Shown here: positions 3,823 through 23,271 of the stretch, in pieces | Position numbering within the stretch: the stretch's first letter is position 1 | Layout: the number at the start of each line of letters is the position of its first letter | Assembly (NCBI GenBank): GCA_048939765.1 | Contig: JBHLPF010000035.1 | Location: 1-38,439, forward strand | DNA: 38,439 nt | Direction: 5' to 3' | Origin: Promethearchaeota archaeon | GTDB lineage: Archaea > Asgardarchaeota > Thorarchaeia > Thorarchaeales > Thorarchaeaceae | Position numbers and translations under genes: made by a program | Notes under the pieces: generated by a model | The model's input: the letters and a program-made list of their open reading frames with translations, nothing else | Told to the model about the DNA's origin: nothing | Databases searched by the model: none

Positions 3823-4407
3823 CTAGCGGACTTGTCCTACCAGGAGCTTCAGGAGCGGGACTCTAGCATATCCCTGACGATTCATCCATACAAGGTCCTT
3901 GCGAAGTTCGATTTTTACAAATTTGCCAGCCTCAGGATTTCTGTAATATTTCATGTAGACTTGCCTAAACTCTTGGAAATTAGGCACACTCAATAGCTCT
4001 GTTACTGCATCATTCGAGATGCGTATGAAAACATCTTCATCAGGAGCAGTCCCTGTCCCGAATTTGACCTCACCTCGAGCCTCCTTGATGAAATTGAATC
4101 GTTCACCCATAGCCATGAACTCAATTGTAAACTCATCAGGGCCCTCGATATTTGCAGCGATGTTAGCATCTTGAAACATGTACTTCAGCCGGTCTGTGAT
4201 TTCTGAATGATATGGAATTGTGGCGGCCCCGTCTACTGGAAAGGGCTCATCAGGCTCAACTTCAGTCTCGGGCTCAGACTCAGCTGATTCCTCTGTGACC
4301 TCCGCAGGTTCTGCTTCTGGAGCGGTTTCTTCAGCGGCAGGGGTGTCTTCAGTTTTTGTCTCCTCTTTCTCTTCATCACGACCAAGTAGTTTCTTGATTC
4401 TATCCAT
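3823..4407 (-). CDS. Hypothetical protein with acidic disordered N-terminus and possible SCP2-like C-terminal domain
   Basis: E/P/A-rich linker, then GEVKFGTGTAPDEDVFIRISNDAVTELL reminiscent of SCP2 folds. Confidence 0.6.
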   Translation of the reverse strand: MDRIKKLLGRDEEKEETKTEDTPAAEETAPEAEPAEVTEESAESEPETEVEPDEPFPVDGAATIPYHSEITDRLKYMFQDANIAANIEGPDEFTIEFMAMGERFNFIKEARGEVKFGTGTAPDEDVFIRISNDAVTELLSVPNFQEFRQVYMKYYRNPEAGKFVKIELRKDLVWMNRQGYARVPLLKLLVGQVR

Positions 4408-8741: not shown

Positions 8742-10559
8742 TTACTCGTAGTAGTAATCTCCAGATCGTTTCTGCTCCTCATCCTTGACGCTTCCAGCCT
8801 TGTTGACTCGCGGTCTACCGGTCTGAGGATCTCGTCTAAAGGTGACAGCCATCTGTTTCAAGAATGCATTCATTCCACGACGAAGTGTAGTGACGGATGA
8901 TGCAATCCCCTTCCTCCCAGGCACTCCGCCAAATATCACCATACTATCGCTCAGATAGTCTGCCATGAGAATTGAGTGCTCAACAACAAATGCAGTCCTC
9001 ATCTGAGTCTGAATGGTCCTGCGGATAGCCCTTGAACTGGCCAGTCTTTGCTCAATGTCGAGGAAAGCTGAGGGCTCATCGAAGAGGTAGATATCTGCAT
9101 CTTGGGCCAGAGTTCGTGCTATAGTTGCACGTTGAAGTTCGCCACCAGACAACTCAGCCACTGCATGGTCCATCAAGTCTTCGAGTTCGAGTTTCCTCAG
9201 TACTGAGGTTCTGAAGTCTGCGCTATCTACTGTGGAACCACCAGCCTCACGAAGATACATTCTCACATTTCCAGAATAGTCTGCCTCAATGTACTGTGGT
9301 TTGTATGCTACTTTTAGATCGAAGCCAGAAACAGTCTTTGTTGGAACTTCTCCCTCACTGGACTCTAACTCCCCAGCTAGCATCCGGACAAAGGTAGTCT
9401 TTCCAATCCCGTTGGGTCCAAGGATGCCAATTATCTGTCCTCTATTCACACGCCCACCTTTCACTTCAAGTGTGAAGTCTTCGAACTCCTTCCTCAGGTC
9501 TCCATACTCAATAAGGGTCTCTGAGCTCCTAAACTCTTCATCTTCTCCTGTCATGCCTTTGAATGAGATTGCGGTGTCTCGAAACCTCATGTTCTCATCA
9601 GGGATATAGCCATCGAGAAAGATGTTCACGCCAACTCTGGTTCCATGGGGATGAGATACAATTCCATAAGCACCTGGTTTGCCATAGAAAATGCAGACCA
9701 GATCTGAAACATAATCGAGAATTGAAAGGTCGTGCTCAACAACGACCACTGTCTTTCCTTGGTCAGAGAGGTTGCGGATTGCTCGGCCCACTCTTAGTCT
9801 CTCGCGGACATCAAGGTAGGCAGTTGGCTCGTCAAAGAAGTAGATATCGCCCTCCCGCACAATTGCAGCTGTCATCGCAACTCGCTGCAGTTCTCCACCT
9901 GAGAGAAATTTGATTGGACGGTCCCAAATCTCAGTCAGGCTCATGTCTTCCTTCAGGTCTTTGAGTCGACCGGAGGTGTCTGCAGCTTGAAGGAGTTCAC
10001 TGATTGGTTTATCAGCCACAGCTTTGACCTTGGGCAGGTCGGTTATGGTCTGGGGTTTGTGGACTGGCACAATCTGCCCATCCTGTATTCGTTCAAAGAA
10101 GGGCTGCAACTCTGACCCTCGATACTGCTTGATTATATCATCCCATTCGGGAGGGCGCTCTACATTGCCAAGATTGGGCTTCAATTCGCCGGCCAGTATT
10201 CGAATAGCCGTCGTCTTGCCAACGCCATTGGCACCAATCAGCCCTAGGACCTGCCCCTCCTTTGGAATAGGCATCCGGAAGAGTTCGAATCCATTAACGC
10301 CGTAGCGGTGACTGCCGTCAGTATCGAGTTCTTCAGGAAGATTCACCACGCTGATTACATGGTAGGGACACTTCTTCACACACATTGCTGCCCCGGAGCA
10401 GAGAGACTCCACAATGGTAGGGGGCTTGTCAGGGCCATCGAAGAATACGACTGTTTCAGTGCCAGTCCTGACCATAGGGCAGAACCTCTGACACTCATGA
10501 GTGCAGTCTTTTGGCCTGCAACGGACCCTATCAATTACTGCAATGCGCATTGTTGTCAT
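8742..10559 (-). CDS. rli: Ribosome recycling ATPase ABCE1 (RLI)
   Basis: N-terminal Fe-S domain, HRYGVNGFELF, two Walker A motifs, two LSGGELQR, TFRRD..TGRPRVNK, GDYYY. Confidence 0.98.
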   Translation of the reverse strand: MTTMRIAVIDRVRCRPKDCTHECQRFCPMVRTGTETVVFFDGPDKPPTIVESLCSGAAMCVKKCPYHVISVVNLPEELDTDGSHRYGVNGFELFRMPIPKEGQVLGLIGANGVGKTTAIRILAGELKPNLGNVERPPEWDDIIKQYRGSELQPFFERIQDGQIVPVHKPQTITDLPKVKAVADKPISELLQAADTSGRLKDLKEDMSLTEIWDRPIKFLSGGELQRVAMTAAIVREGDIYFFDEPTAYLDVRERLRVGRAIRNLSDQGKTVVVVEHDLSILDYVSDLVCIFYGKPGAYGIVSHPHGTRVGVNIFLDGYIPDENMRFRDTAISFKGMTGEDEEFRSSETLIEYGDLRKEFEDFTLEVKGGRVNRGQIIGILGPNGIGKTTFVRMLAGELESSEGEVPTKTVSGFDLKVAYKPQYIEADYSGNVRMYLREAGGSTVDSADFRTSVLRKLELEDLMDHAVAELSGGELQRATIARTLAQDADIYLFDEPSAFLDIEQRLASSRAIRRTIQTQMRTAFVVEHSILMADYLSDSMVIFGGVPGRKGIASSVTTLRRGMNAFLKQMAVTFRRDPQTGRPRVNKAGSVKDEEQKRSGDYYYE

Positions 10560-11684: not shown

Positions 11685-12275
11685 GTGGTGGCAAGCCTTA
11701 TTGTCATTGCACTCGCCATTCCGATAATCACCATTGTCCAGATAATCCCAGAAACAATAGATCTTCAACTCAACTACTTGTATAGACACAGCGTTCAGCA
11801 CGGTAGTTTTGATTCTGATACCGGCACCAACTACACCATCTACGAGTTCTCATCAGCGGCAACGCTAGACAATTTCAGTCTTGTCCTTAGCGGTAAGGAA
11901 GTGCGGAGCTATCCAGTTTGGATCAATGTCAGCTCGTGGGATTTCGGCGATACTGTACAAATAGCCAATCAGACAGTTACGATTGAATGGGACTCTGAGA
12001 GAAATGGCCTAGAGTGCTGGATTGGGCAGCTTCAGAATGGAACAGACGTGTATTATTCAAAGGAGTACGGTGTTTTTCTTGGTACCTACTATCATGAGTT
12101 TGAGTTCATTGGTGCGACTTTCTACTCTGAAACATACCAGATTGAACTCACATACCAGAATCTCATGGATTTCTTTGAGATAGAATACGAATTCAACATT
12201 GATGCGCTAGTACTCTCTATAGTCCTCATAGAGGCGGCCATCGTCATTTGGCTTGTTGAAAGAGGACGAAGATGA
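11685..12275 (+). CDS. Membrane-anchored extracellular protein, paralogue 2
   Basis: Shares LDNxSLxLSG, YPVWxNVS, GDTVQ, CW, QNGTDxYY, GxFLGxYY with 10981-11604. Confidence 0.8.
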   Translation: MVASLIVIALAIPIITIVQIIPETIDLQLNYLYRHSVQHGSFDSDTGTNYTIYEFSSAATLDNFSLVLSGKEVRSYPVWINVSSWDFGDTVQIANQTVTIEWDSERNGLECWIGQLQNGTDVYYSKEYGVFLGTYYHEFEFIGATFYSETYQIELTYQNLMDFFEIEYEFNIDALVLSIVLIEAAIVIWLVERGRR

Positions 12276-12320
12276 GTGTAACTCCGAAAGTCTTAAGCAA
12301 AATCAAGGATGGCTAGTAAT

Positions 12321-12393
12321 GTGGAATGATGATGAAGTAGGGATGGTGAGCGTCTCATCAACGTGATGACCCACTAAACCGCAGTCTGACCAC
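12321..12393 (+). ncRNA. Box C/D methylation-guide sRNA
   Basis: Terminal stem GTGG/CCAC; C box ATGATGA 12326-12332; D'-like GTGA 12346-12349; C' GTGATGA 12363-12369; D box CTGA 12386-12389; exact K-turn geometry; intergenic, with a TATA-like CTTAAG about 26 nt upstream. Confidence 0.85.
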
Positions 12394-12487
12394 TTATCAG
12401 TATACACTGAATTGTAATTCAACACCTCATAACGAAAAGAGGACCCAAAGCCCTTGACGGCCTCTACCAGGAGACCCATGAAACTTG

Positions 12488-16756: not shown

Positions 16757-17265
16757 CTTCTCTGGGGAAAAGAACCTTGAGCGACGATAGAGATAGAACG
16801 CTCGAAGACAAGGTTGAAACGATATATAGAGCGAGAGACAAAGAGAGAGAGAGCGCCCGGGGCCTGCGAGAGAATGAGAGGTCACTGATAAGCCTCATTC
16901 AGAAGCTGGATGACTATGAGGGTATTATTGTGATAGTGGAGGGAAAACGAGATGAACACATTCTCCGGAGTCTGGGACTTCGTGCTCCCATAGTGAAGAC
17001 ACAGCATGGTATGCCAAGGCCAGAACTCTTGGATGATATTGCATCACGTGCAGGCAGGAATGGACAGGTTCTCATCCTTACAGATTTTGACGACGAGGGC
17101 GTTGAGATCTGCAGGTTCATTGAAAGAGGGCTGGAACCAAGGCGGGTAAGAATCCTTCAAGGCCTCCGCTTAGAGATTCGCAAAGCTATGGGAAACTGGC
17201 GTTGTATTGAGGAGATGGTGGCCCTCTTCAAGAGAAAGGACTCACCAGAACCATGTCCGTACTAG
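16753..17265 (+). CDS. Small stand-alone TOPRIM domain protein
   Basis: VIVEGKRD and ILTDFDDEG (E and DxD motifs). Confidence 0.88.
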   Translation: MTSLGKRTLSDDRDRTLEDKVETIYRARDKERESARGLRENERSLISLIQKLDDYEGIIVIVEGKRDEHILRSLGLRAPIVKTQHGMPRPELLDDIASRAGRNGQVLILTDFDDEGVEICRFIERGLEPRRVRILQGLRLEIRKAMGNWRCIEEMVALFKRKDSPEPCPY

Positions 17266-22140: not shown

Positions 22141-23271
22141 ATGAAGAGAGCAGGTGTTGCTGACCTGAAGCTGCATCCAGGCAAGGCACCATATTGGCTG
22201 GTCAAGAGGATGATGCCCATGGCCAGTGCGCTCTGTGAGTTCATTGTGGACGAGTTTGGCACACTCGAGCTTCTAAGACGACTCTCAGATCCGGTCTACT
22301 TTCAAGCGCTGTCGAATGTGTTGGGTTATGATTGGGACAGTTCAGGATCAACCACGGTGACATGCGGAGTCCTGAAGTCTGTTCTGAGTTGGGAGAAGCA
22401 CGGCATGGTAGGCATAGGAGGGAAAGGACTTGCCTCCAGAAAGGTGCCAGATCAGCTGAGGGCATTGGAAGACTTTGGACTCGATGGATACGGACTTGCT
22501 GAGATAAGCAAGGCCGTTGCAAAGGTAGACAATGCCGCAGTCCAGGACGGATATCAGCTGTATCAGCATGTCTTCTTTGTAGACCCTGAGGAAAACTGGA
22601 CAGTGGTACAGCAAGGCATGGATAACAATTCAAACGATGCGCGCAGGTACCACTGGATCTCTGAAGAAGTGGAGAGCTTCATTGATGAGCCTCACTCTGG
22701 AATGATATCGGGGCAGGTGAAGAAGGCGACTCTCGATCTCACCTCCAAGGAGTCGGATGAGTGTCGAAAGACAACTCTTGATGTAGTCAAGGAGAATCCG
22801 CGAAAAGTCAGGAAGCTCTTCGAGGATATGAAGGCATATGGTGAGAGCACGCTGATCCCATGGATTGAAGGAGATGACCCAGAGGTTTCAATGCCATCTT
22901 ACAAGGTAATCCCCAACAGAATGGACTGGAATGCAGTACGCAAGGCATACGAAGTGCAGCCATCCGGCTATGAGGATATGCTCTTTATAGATGGGATGGG
23001 GCCCGCCACAGTGAGGGGATTGTCTCTTATCTCAGAGATGATCTATGGGTCAGCACCATCCTGGTCAGATCCAGTCCGCATGACATTTGCATTTGGTGGG
23101 AAGGATGGAGTACCTTATCCAGTCCCTCGTCAAAACTATGATGAGGCAATCAAGTTCATGGAGCAAGCTTTGAACGATGCGAAACTGGGTAGAAGAGACC
23201 GCGTTGTAGCCCTCAGGAGGCTGAGGGATTTTGCACCCCCGGTCCTCCATGCGACTTCCCAAGGTAGCTGA
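22141..23271 (+). CDS. DUF763 family protein
   Basis: ADLKLH.GKAP.WL, DWDSSGSTT, AKVDNAAVQDGYQLY, VQQGM, ARRYHW, GGKDGVPYPV. Confidence 0.93.
   Translation: MKRAGVADLKLHPGKAPYWLVKRMMPMASALCEFIVDEFGTLELLRRLSDPVYFQALSNVLGYDWDSSGSTTVTCGVLKSVLSWEKHGMVGIGGKGLASRKVPDQLRALEDFGLDGYGLAEISKAVAKVDNAAVQDGYQLYQHVFFVDPEENWTVVQQGMDNNSNDARRYHWISEEVESFIDEPHSGMISGQVKKATLDLTSKESDECRKTTLDVVKENPRKVRKLFEDMKAYGESTLIPWIEGDDPEVSMPSYKVIPNRMDWNAVRKAYEVQPSGYEDMLFIDGMGPATVRGLSLISEMIYGSAPSWSDPVRMTFAFGGKDGVPYPVPRQNYDEAIKFMEQALNDAKLGRRDRVVALRRLRDFAPPVLHATSQGS

What the first reader, a model, noticed from the sequence alone, without database searches (positions are those of the whole stretch)
12321..12393. Intergenic box C/D sRNA with a predicted 16S rRNA target
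Seen: a GTGG/CCAC stem, a 3-nt bulge, perfect C, C' and D boxes, a GTGA D'-like box, and a probable own promoter. The D guide contains TAAACCGCAG, complementary to CUGCGGUUUA, which from memory is conserved in archaeal 16S rRNA (E. coli region about 948-957). The D+5 rule predicts 2'-O-methylation of the C in CUG[C]GG, near E. coli position 952. I could not place the D' guide (TGAAGTAGGGATG). The guide spacers (13 and 16 nt) and the D'-C' linker are longer than in compact archaeal sRNAs, and an internal hairpin TGGTGAG/CTCATCA could occlude D'. If the host is Asgard, this bears on snoRNA origins.
Basis: partly seen in the sequence, partly recalled or inferred. Interest (0 to 1): 0.72.

Follow-up and report, generated by a model that had tools for sequence, protein, structure and literature searches.

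The report
Thorarchaeal box C/D rRNA-methylation guide RNA
This 73-base stretch is a real, conserved small guide RNA of an Asgard (Thorarchaeota) archaeon that most likely directs sugar methylation of two cytidines in 16S ribosomal RNA; it is a new example of a well-known RNA class, not a new kind.

Summary
Window 12321-12393 (+) carries a GUGG/CCAC terminal stem, a 3-nt bulge, box C and box D. It is conserved as a discrete unit in about 50 distinct variants, almost all from Thorarchaeota MAGs. Flanks diverge completely, the terminal stem covaries, and a BRE/TATA-like element sits at a fixed distance upstream.

The host encodes L7Ae, Nop5 and fibrillarin. No curated Rfam family reaches threshold.

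Both guides pair with the host's own 16S rRNA:
One pair is a G.U wobble, because the host 16S reads CUUGCGG, not CUGCGG.

Guide substitutions across species are mostly ones that keep pairing.

My one correction concerns the internal motif. Both spacers are then 13 nt, so the "long spacer" anomaly disappears.

The closest precedents are the Nanoarchaeum sR15/sR17 long-range 16S chaperone guides.

This scan already reported the same family in two other Thorarchaeal genomes. Expression and methylation remain unshown.

The parts
12286..12290 (+). BRE-like element GAAAG
   Evidence: It directly precedes the TATA-like box. The motif (G)AAAG(C) recurs at the same distance in most of the 50 homologues.
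12291..12298 (+). TATA-like box TCTTAAGC, centred about 26 nt upstream of the terminal stem
   Evidence: A+T frequency peaks at 0.84-0.94 at positions -28 to -26 across 50 homologues whose flanks are otherwise unalignable.
12321..12324 (+). 5' strand of the terminal stem (GUGG), stem I of the C/D K-turn
   Evidence: Pairs with 12390-12393. Compensatory changes are seen in homologues: GCGG/CCGC, GUCGG/CCGAC, ACGG/CCGU, GUCG/CGAC.
12326..12332 (+). Box C AUGAUGA (A12325, A12326 and U12327 form the 3-nt bulge)
   Evidence: UGAUGA is invariant in the 50 variants.
12333..12345 (+). D' guide/spacer UGAAGUAGGGAUG (13 nt); 12334-12345 pair with host 16S 1350-1361
   Evidence: 12 contiguous pairs (10 Watson-Crick, 2 G.U). 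G12341 pairs with C1354. U12338 is replaced by C in some lineages, turning the G.U into G-C.
12346..12349 (+). Box D' GUGA (non-consensus first base)
   Evidence: A12349 is invariant and G12348 is kept in 44 of 50 variants.
12350..12353 (+). 5' strand of the internal stem I (GCGU)
   Evidence: Pairs with 12361-12364. Pair 35-51 is GU 17, AU 16, GC 14. Pair 36-50 is CG 48, UA 1. Pair 37-49 is GC 48.
12354..12360 (+). Loop CUCAUCA capping the internal stem
   Evidence: The sequence is largely conserved. No function is shown. Its 7-nt complement in 16S 967-973 is at chance level.
12361..12364 (+). 3' strand of the internal stem I (ACGU)
12366..12372 (+). Re-registered box C' AUGACCC (bulge G12365, A12366, U12367; sheared G12368 and A12369; C12371-G12346 and C12372-G12345 pairs).
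   Evidence: G12368 is invariant. The second GA is kept in 47 of 50 variants, and the 3 GG exceptions are exactly the 3 with D' UA. The first GA is lost in 10 of 50. Both stem II (non-canonical stem) pairs change together to CA/UG in one lineage.
12373..12385 (+). D guide/spacer ACUAAACCGCAGU (13 nt); 12375-12384 pair with host 16S 916-925
   Evidence: 10 contiguous pairs (9 Watson-Crick, 1 G.U). G12381 pairs with C919. G12384 alternates with A in homologues, and both pair with U916.
12386..12389 (+). Box D CUGA
   Evidence: Identical in all blastn-found relatives, which were not selected on it. In A1 its invariance is imposed by the search pattern.
12390..12393 (+). 3' strand of the terminal stem (CCAC)

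Best explanation
Window 12321-12393 (+) is the gene of a dual-guide box C/D sRNA of a Thorarchaeon. It is transcribed from its own BRE/TATA promoter, starting at or next to the terminal stem.

Inferred mechanism:
- L7Ae binds the terminal C/D K-turn and an internal C'/D' K-turn. That internal K-turn is closed by a 3-4-bp stem (GCG(U)/(A)CGU) and a CUCAUCA loop.
- A Nop5 dimer and two fibrillarins complete the particle.
- The D guide pairs with 16S 916-925 and places C919 (E. coli 952, 5' strand of helix 30) at the fifth position upstream of box D for 2'-O-methylation.
- The D' guide pairs with 16S 1350/1351-1361 and places C1354 (E. coli 1382, at the start of the 3' strand of helix 28) likewise.
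- The two sites lie about 435 nt apart but both belong to the base of the 3' major (head) domain. The particle probably also acts as a folding chaperone that transiently holds these strands together.

Shown: the motifs, their conservation and covariation, the complementarity, and the presence of the protein genes. Inferred: transcript ends, protein binding, methylation and the chaperone role.
For: - Motifs are at the stated coordinates.
- Conservation is limited to the 73 nt, in 13 of 16 genomes of the genus plus other genera of the family. There are 50 distinct variants. The covariance model finds it in 15 of 26 genomes of the host's family and gives nothing strong in 124 other Asgard genomes.
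- The terminal stem covaries, and no shuffle of 500 reaches the observed covariation score.
- Internal K-turn model: 87% of cells are paired, 8 pairs show a change on both sides (0 of 500 shuffles reach this), and slid controls give 23-47% paired. G12368 and A12349 are invariant, and D'/C' show a coordinated UA/GG change.
- Anchored guide-rRNA pairing: the D score is reached by 92 of 2000 shuffled guides, the D' score by 11 of 2000, and both together by 1 of 2000.
- Thorarchaeal 16S genes share UUGCGGUUUA and the lineage-specific CUGCUUC that the guides match.
- Fibrillarin and Nop5 lie next to each other on C64, and L7Ae is on C12.
- The BRE/TATA-like element keeps its position.
- All sub-threshold Rfam hits that span the element on the + strand are C/D-box families.
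- Precedent: N. equitans sR15 and sR17 pair with opposite strands of helices 30 and 28 (PMC4644070).
Against: - No transcript ends, strand or level are shown. RNA-library contigs of a close relative cover 12277-12412 but also include the promoter region, so they could be DNA carry-over or read-through.
- Complementarity alone is not unique. The 3.4-Mb genome holds dozens of equal or better anchored matches: 55 listed for D and 82 for D', with some sites counted twice and the gene's own antisense included. One is a perfect 13-mer inside an ORF on C22.
- Box D' is GUGA, not CUGA.
- No terminator is present.
- The minimum-free-energy fold is unremarkable (z = -0.75).
- A few lineages carry unrelated D' guides.
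- Methylation at these two positions was not found in the papers read.
Confidence: 0.85

Rival explanations
1. It is a C/D sRNA with the reader's architecture. C' is GUGAUGA at 12363-12369 and forms a K-loop with D'. The linker is an unstructured 13-nt loop and the D spacer is 16 nt.
For: GUGAUGA matches the consensus perfectly in the host. The first GA is present in 40 of 50 variants. K-loops are the typical archaeal C'/D' form (PMC6009581).
Against: The first GA is lost in 10 of 50 variants, while the second G is invariant. In this register the C' G6 faces G12346, not C. The GCG/CGY stem and the GG/CC pairs are kept and covary. The optimal archaeal spacer is 12 nt (PMC8413462).
Confidence: 0.2
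2. It is a C/D sRNP that acts only as an rRNA-folding chaperone at one or both sites. For example, the D' half with its non-consensus GUGA box may bind 16S without catalysing methylation.
For: D' is non-consensus. Long-range dual guides have been proposed to act as chaperones (PMC4644070). The D' guide is replaced in some lineages while the D guide is kept.
Against: Both duplexes are anchored 1-2 nt from the box, with a Watson-Crick G-C pair at the fifth position, as catalysis requires. The GA of D' is conserved.
Confidence: 0.2
3. The true targets are not 16S rRNA but mRNAs or tRNAs, for example the ORF on C22 that carries a perfect 13-nt complement to the D' guide.
For: There are many equal-scoring sites genome-wide and one perfect 13-mer.
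Against: Such numbers are expected by chance in 6.7 Mb of two-stranded sequence. No tRNA match exceeds 7 pairs. Guides stay constant across genera, where coding sequences drift, while the 16S sites are invariant. Both guides hit the same rRNA.
Confidence: 0.05
4. It is not an RNA gene. It is a conserved DNA or leader element of the downstream gene, or part of the 58-codon minus-strand ORF at 12303-12479.
For: The ORF exists. In many species a Shine-Dalgarno-like AGGAG follows within about 10 nt.
Against: Conservation stops at the stem ends, so the ORF is not conserved. The covariation is of the RNA-helix type. The ORF has no Pfam match. Neighbouring sequence differs between lineages.
Confidence: 0.03

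Closest known systems
Nanoarchaeum equitans sR15 and sR17 (long-range 16S dual guides; Dennis et al. 2015, PMC4644070)
   Same: They are dual-guide C/D sRNAs whose two guides pair with distant 16S strands at the base of the 3' major domain (helices 30 and 28). The sR17 D guide pairs with the same UCCCUGCUCC stretch, with its predicted site about 2 nt from ours.
   Different: Each Nanoarchaeum RNA bridges the two strands of one helix. The Thorarchaeal RNA combines the helix 30 5' strand with the helix 28 3' strand. The methylated positions differ, there is no detectable sequence homology, and the Nanoarchaeum RNAs are compact (about 54-60 nt) with short D'-C' linkers.
Canonical archaeal dual-guide box C/D sRNAs (Pyrococcus, Sulfolobus and Pyrobaculum sR families)
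   Same: Shared features are the C/D K-turn with a short terminal stem, two guides with the fifth-nucleotide rule, near-12-nt spacers, and the L7Ae-Nop5-fibrillarin genes in the host.
   Different: This RNA is 73 nt rather than about 50-60. Its C'/D' motif is closed by a stem-loop (an internal K-turn) instead of the usual K-loop. D' is GUGA and C' is AUGACCC. No Rfam family reaches threshold.
Eukaryotic box C/D snoRNAs
   Same: They share the C/D K-turn and the fifth-nucleotide rule. The best sub-threshold Rfam hits include SNORD31 and SNORD53/92.
   Different: This RNA has two functional-looking guides, symmetric 13-nt spacers, a well-kept C'/D' motif and its own archaeal promoter. These are archaeal traits, not eukaryotic ones.

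Membership tests
Archaeal box C/D sRNA | Box C RUGAUGA near the 5' end and box D CUGA near the 3' end | tested here: met
   ATGATGA at 12326-32 and CTGA at 12386-89. Both are also identical in all blastn-found relatives, which were not selected on them; in A1 their invariance is imposed by the search pattern.
Archaeal box C/D sRNA | Terminal stem that juxtaposes C and D, with a 3-nt bulge (K-turn layout) | tested here: met
   GUGG/CCAC with bulge AAU. Pairs 2-80 and 3-79 covary. The three-dimensional kink itself cannot be tested here.
Archaeal box C/D sRNA | Internal C'/D' motif with tandem G.A pairs | tested here: met
   Met only after shifting C' by 3 nt. G12368/A12369 face A12349/G12348, with G12368 and A12349 invariant, and stem I and stem II covary. 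D' is non-consensus (GUGA).
Archaeal box C/D sRNA | Guide of about 10-12 nt complementary to rRNA or tRNA, anchored next to D/D', with a paired nucleotide at the fifth position | tested here: met
   D: 10 pairs to 16S 916-925. D': 12 pairs to 1350-1361. Both scores together are reached by 1 of 2000 shuffles. The matches are not unique genome-wide.
Archaeal box C/D sRNA | Spacers near 12 nt between the boxes | tested here: met
The optimum is 12 nt per PMC8413462.
Archaeal box C/D sRNA | Host encodes L7Ae, Nop5 and fibrillarin | tested here: met
   PF01248, 96 bits, on C12. PF01798, 229 bits, and PF01269, 284 bits, adjacent on C64.
Archaeal box C/D sRNA | Expressed as a discrete small RNA | tested here: inconclusive
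   Three RNA-library runs from two studies hold 151-163-nt contigs of a relative over 12277-12412. Contigs show no ends or strand and also include the promoter.
Archaeal box C/D sRNA | 2'-O-methylation at the predicted nucleotides | not testable with these tools
   This needs RiboMeth-seq or primer extension on Thorarchaeal 16S rRNA.
Any curated Rfam C/D family | Score at or above the family's gathering threshold | tested here: not met
   There are no hits at gathering. The best sub-threshold hit is SNORD31 at 23.8 bits against a threshold of 40.

The most novel reading that the evidence does not exclude
Thorarchaeal C/D particles may be a step towards the eukaryotic type. The internal C'/D' motif of this RNA is a full, stem-closed K-turn rather than a K-loop. 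In addition, L7Ae of the host's family carries an Arg in loop 9 (GI[E/S/Q]RPT). That is the Snu13 R95 position, where Thermococcus L7Ae and the other Asgard families sampled (all except f1, f7 and f20) have Val, and this loop is reported to decide K-loop binding. If this L7Ae has lost K-loop binding, the RNA stem would be its compensating partner.
Probability: 0.12. Interest if true: 0.65.

Novelty: new member of a known kind. Interest (0 to 1): 0.4.

Why it matters
In the library I searched I found no paper that catalogues box C/D guide RNAs of Asgard archaea. This family gives a well-defined, widely conserved example with two testable 16S targets at the head-neck junction of the small subunit. 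It shows that at least this Thorarchaeal guide is archaeal in design: dual guides, near-12-nt spacers and its own promoter. That tempers the idea that it bears directly on snoRNA origins. The stem-closed internal K-turn, together with the eukaryote-like Arg in L7Ae loop 9, is a small, cheap-to-test lead on how K-loop recognition was lost on the way to Snu13.

Tried and rejected
- Rfam at gathering thresholds gave nothing. At a permissive E-value it gave only sub-threshold C/D families.
- RNA-library contigs: runs X1, X3 and X5 cover 12277/82-12399/12412 at 90-95% identity, so they come from a relative; X2 laid nothing. Contigs cannot give ends, strand or level, so this is not counted as expression evidence.
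- Single-sequence folding gives z = -0.75, which is uninformative. RNAalifold recovers only the terminal stem.
A linker/C' hairpin UCAUCA/UGAUGA is 80% paired with little covariation. Both are weaker than the K-turn model.
- The linker as a third antisense element: its 7-nt match to 16S 967-973 is at chance level.
- Search for paralogues that share the GA-stem-CUCAUCA-stem-NNNGA module in the host: none besides this locus.
- tRNA targets: the best match is 7 pairs.
- Looking behind the only tRNA-Gly that aragorn found, for the other C/D RNA noted by the scan: not found.
- PMC2802039 and PMC1289080 are not held.
- Supplement alignments of PMC4644070 have lost their column spacing, so exact label positions could not be read.

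Full report
**Observation.** It lies between a 196-codon ORF that ends at 12275 and a CxxCxxCC-domain gene that starts near 12485. A 58-codon minus-strand ORF overlaps it but has no family match.

**Host.** The assembly has archaeal 16S and 23S genes. A pattern built from the element (TGATGA, a gap of 30-55, then TAAACCGCARTCTGA) was run over one genome for each of 185,579 species. It returned 65 loci. About 53 are archaeal, almost all titled Candidatus Thorarchaeota, with a few titled Promethearchaeota or uncultured archaeon and one titled Hermodarchaeota. The other 12 are bacterial hits that lack every other feature. The host is therefore a Thorarchaeon, an Asgard archaeon.

**Is it a discrete conserved element?**
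- A blastn search of 12300-12410 against 40 relatives found it in 13 of 16 genomes of the genus and in four other genera of the family. For all but the closest relatives the match was confined to query 23-95, which is window 12322-12394.
- In the alignment the flanks are unalignable, while the boxes and most of both guides are invariant.
- Fifty distinct variants were aligned as A1.
- The terminal stem covaries. Pair 2-80 is UA 21, GC 11, UG 4, AU 2. Pair 3-79 is CG 35, UA 11. Pair 4-78 is GC 49, CG 1.
- A covariance model (R1) found the RNA in 15 of 26 genomes of the host's family. In 124 other genomes of the phylum it gave nothing beyond two 26-27-bit hits.

**Promoter.** In all 50 homologues an A/T-rich box sits at a fixed distance upstream. 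A+T frequency is 0.84-0.94 at -28 to -26 relative to the first stem column. The box is usually preceded by (G)AAAG(C), as in GAAAGCATATTTAGCC. In the host this is GAAAG at 12286-90 plus TCTTAAGC at 12291-98. By the usual archaeal spacing (established knowledge), transcription would start at the stem. There is no conserved T-run downstream. The 3' end is therefore presumably set by trimming to the protein-protected body, as reviewed for Sulfolobus (PMC7994747).

**Targets.**
The D guide pairs with 916-925: nine Watson-Crick pairs plus G12384.U916. G12381, the fifth nucleotide upstream of box D, lies opposite C919.
- I aligned the host 16S to an E. coli 16S and corrected for a 17-nt deletion in that copy, using the universal-primer landmarks at 515, 907 and 1392. 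The sites map to E. coli 952 and 1382.
- Shuffled guides reach the D score in 92 of 2000 trials, the D' score in 11 of 2000, and both together in 1 of 2000.
- Seven 16S genes of the host's family share UUGCGGUUUA. The four of them whose D' region the pattern retrieved, the host included, read CUGCUUC, where other Asgard lineages have CUGCUCC; the GAAG of the D' guide matches it.
- Variation in the guides mostly preserves pairing. G12384 alternates with A opposite U916. U12338 alternates with C opposite G1357.
- No tRNA gives more than 7 pairs.
- As a caution, the genome as a whole holds dozens of equal or better anchored matches. One is a perfect 13-mer in an ORF on C22, where about 0.1 would be expected by chance. 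The case for 16S therefore rests on the joint hit, on conservation and on precedent, not on complementarity alone.

**Machinery.** Nop5 and fibrillarin lie side by side on C64, and L7Ae is on C12.

**Internal architecture.** The alignment favours another register:
- G12368 and A12349 are invariant.
- The GA at 12368-69 is kept in 47 of 50 variants. The three GG exceptions are exactly the three variants whose D' reads UA.
- The GA at 12365-66 is lost in 10 of 50 variants, which read UA, AA, AG, UG or CG.
- The bases right after D' (GCG) pair with the bases before 12365 (CGU). Pair 35-51 is GU 17, AU 16, GC 14. Pair 36-50 is CG 48 plus one double change to UA. Pair 37-49 is GC 48.
- G12346 and G12345 pair with C12371 and C12372. 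Both pairs change together to CA/UG in one lineage.
- Overall 87% of cells are paired, against 23-47% in slid controls. Eight pairs show changes on both sides, which 0 of 500 shuffles reach.

This is the layout of a complete K-turn: stem I, the 3-nt bulge GAU, tandem G.A pairs, then two Watson-Crick pairs. C' is then AUGACCC at 12366-72 and both spacers are 13 nt. Archaeal C'/D' motifs usually form K-loops (PMC6009581), but internal K-turns flanked by a helix are a recognised alternative, and the optimal spacer is 12 nt (PMC8413462). They may be alternative folds of the naked RNA.

**Comparison with known systems.**
- No Rfam family reaches threshold. Most sub-threshold hits on the + strand are C/D families.
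[quoted passage not shown] Both were proposed to chaperone folding of the 16S 3' major domain (PMC4644070). The sR17 D guide pairs with the same UCCCUGCUCC stretch.
- The Thorarchaeal RNA joins the helix 30 5' strand to the helix 28 3' strand. The helix assignment is from established 16S secondary structure and is an inference here.

**Expression.** Three sediment RNA libraries from two studies contain 151-163-nt contigs of a close relative covering 12277/82 to 12399/12412. These contigs also span the promoter and cannot show ends or strand, so I do not count them as support.

**Earlier notes of this scan.** The same family was already reported in two other Thorarchaeal genomes with the same reading. 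Another C/D RNA was noted elsewhere in this genome. I reached my conclusions from my own tests. The C' re-registration and the L7Ae observation are additions.

**Side observation.** Host L7Ae is archaeal in type; its best solved relative is Thermococcus L7Ae (E = 2.6e-44). Its loop 9 reads GIERPTAAVAI where Thermococcus has G(L/I)EVPAASVAI. All seven genomes of the host's family that I sampled carry this Arg, as do families f7 and f20. Nineteen genomes of nine other Asgard families have Val. The position corresponds to Snu13 R95, in the loop reported to control binding to K-loops that lack stem I (PMC8413462). Whether this is linked to the stem-closed C'/D' motif is untested.

**Verdict.** This is a genuine, previously uncatalogued family of a well-known RNA class, with a sound target prediction and an archaeal rather than eukaryote-like design.

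Noticed in passing
G000:C12:31087-31455 (-) = L115:1459-1830 (-); relatives L134-L163: L7Ae loop 9 carries an Arg (GI[E/S/Q]RPT) in all 7 genomes sampled from the host's family, and also in families f7 and f20. Nineteen genomes from 9 other Asgard families have the usual archaeal Val. The position equals Snu13 R95.
   Followed up: partly
G000:C22, minus strand, reverse-complement position 4128-4140: A perfect 13-nt complement (CATCCCTACTTCA) to the D' guide lies inside an ORF in sense orientation. About 0.1 such matches are expected by chance. Its conservation was not checked.
   Followed up: partly
L132:1501-1577 (+) = G102:C167:6335-6411: This is a 27-bit match to model R1 in a different Asgard family. 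It has a terminal stem, a C box, an internal GCCC/GGGC stem with the same CUCAUCA loop, and different guides, but its D box reads CUGC. It could be a distant or decayed relative.
   Followed up: no
G000:C86 (-) 17113-17157; C72 (+) 22526-22584; eight others listed: A simple scan (box C, box D, terminal stem, D guide with at least 9 anchored pairs to rRNA) gave 10 candidates in the genome and 0 in the reversed genome. Apart from the present locus, none was verified.
   Followed up: no
L094 (G014:C82:4569-6699): The 16S gene binned with this same-genus MAG reads GCCUGCGGUUCAAUUGGAUUC, like other Asgard families and unlike its genus. It also carries a long insertion, so it may be a binning contaminant.
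   Followed up: no
L027, L082, L036, L037, L063, L077 (homologues): These lineages keep the D guide and the scaffold but carry unrelated D' guides. This is guide turnover of the kind reviewed for other archaea.
   Followed up: no
window 8742-10559 (-): An ABCE1/RLI-type ATPase gene (Fer4_RLI plus two ABC domains) lies upstream of the locus.
   Followed up: no
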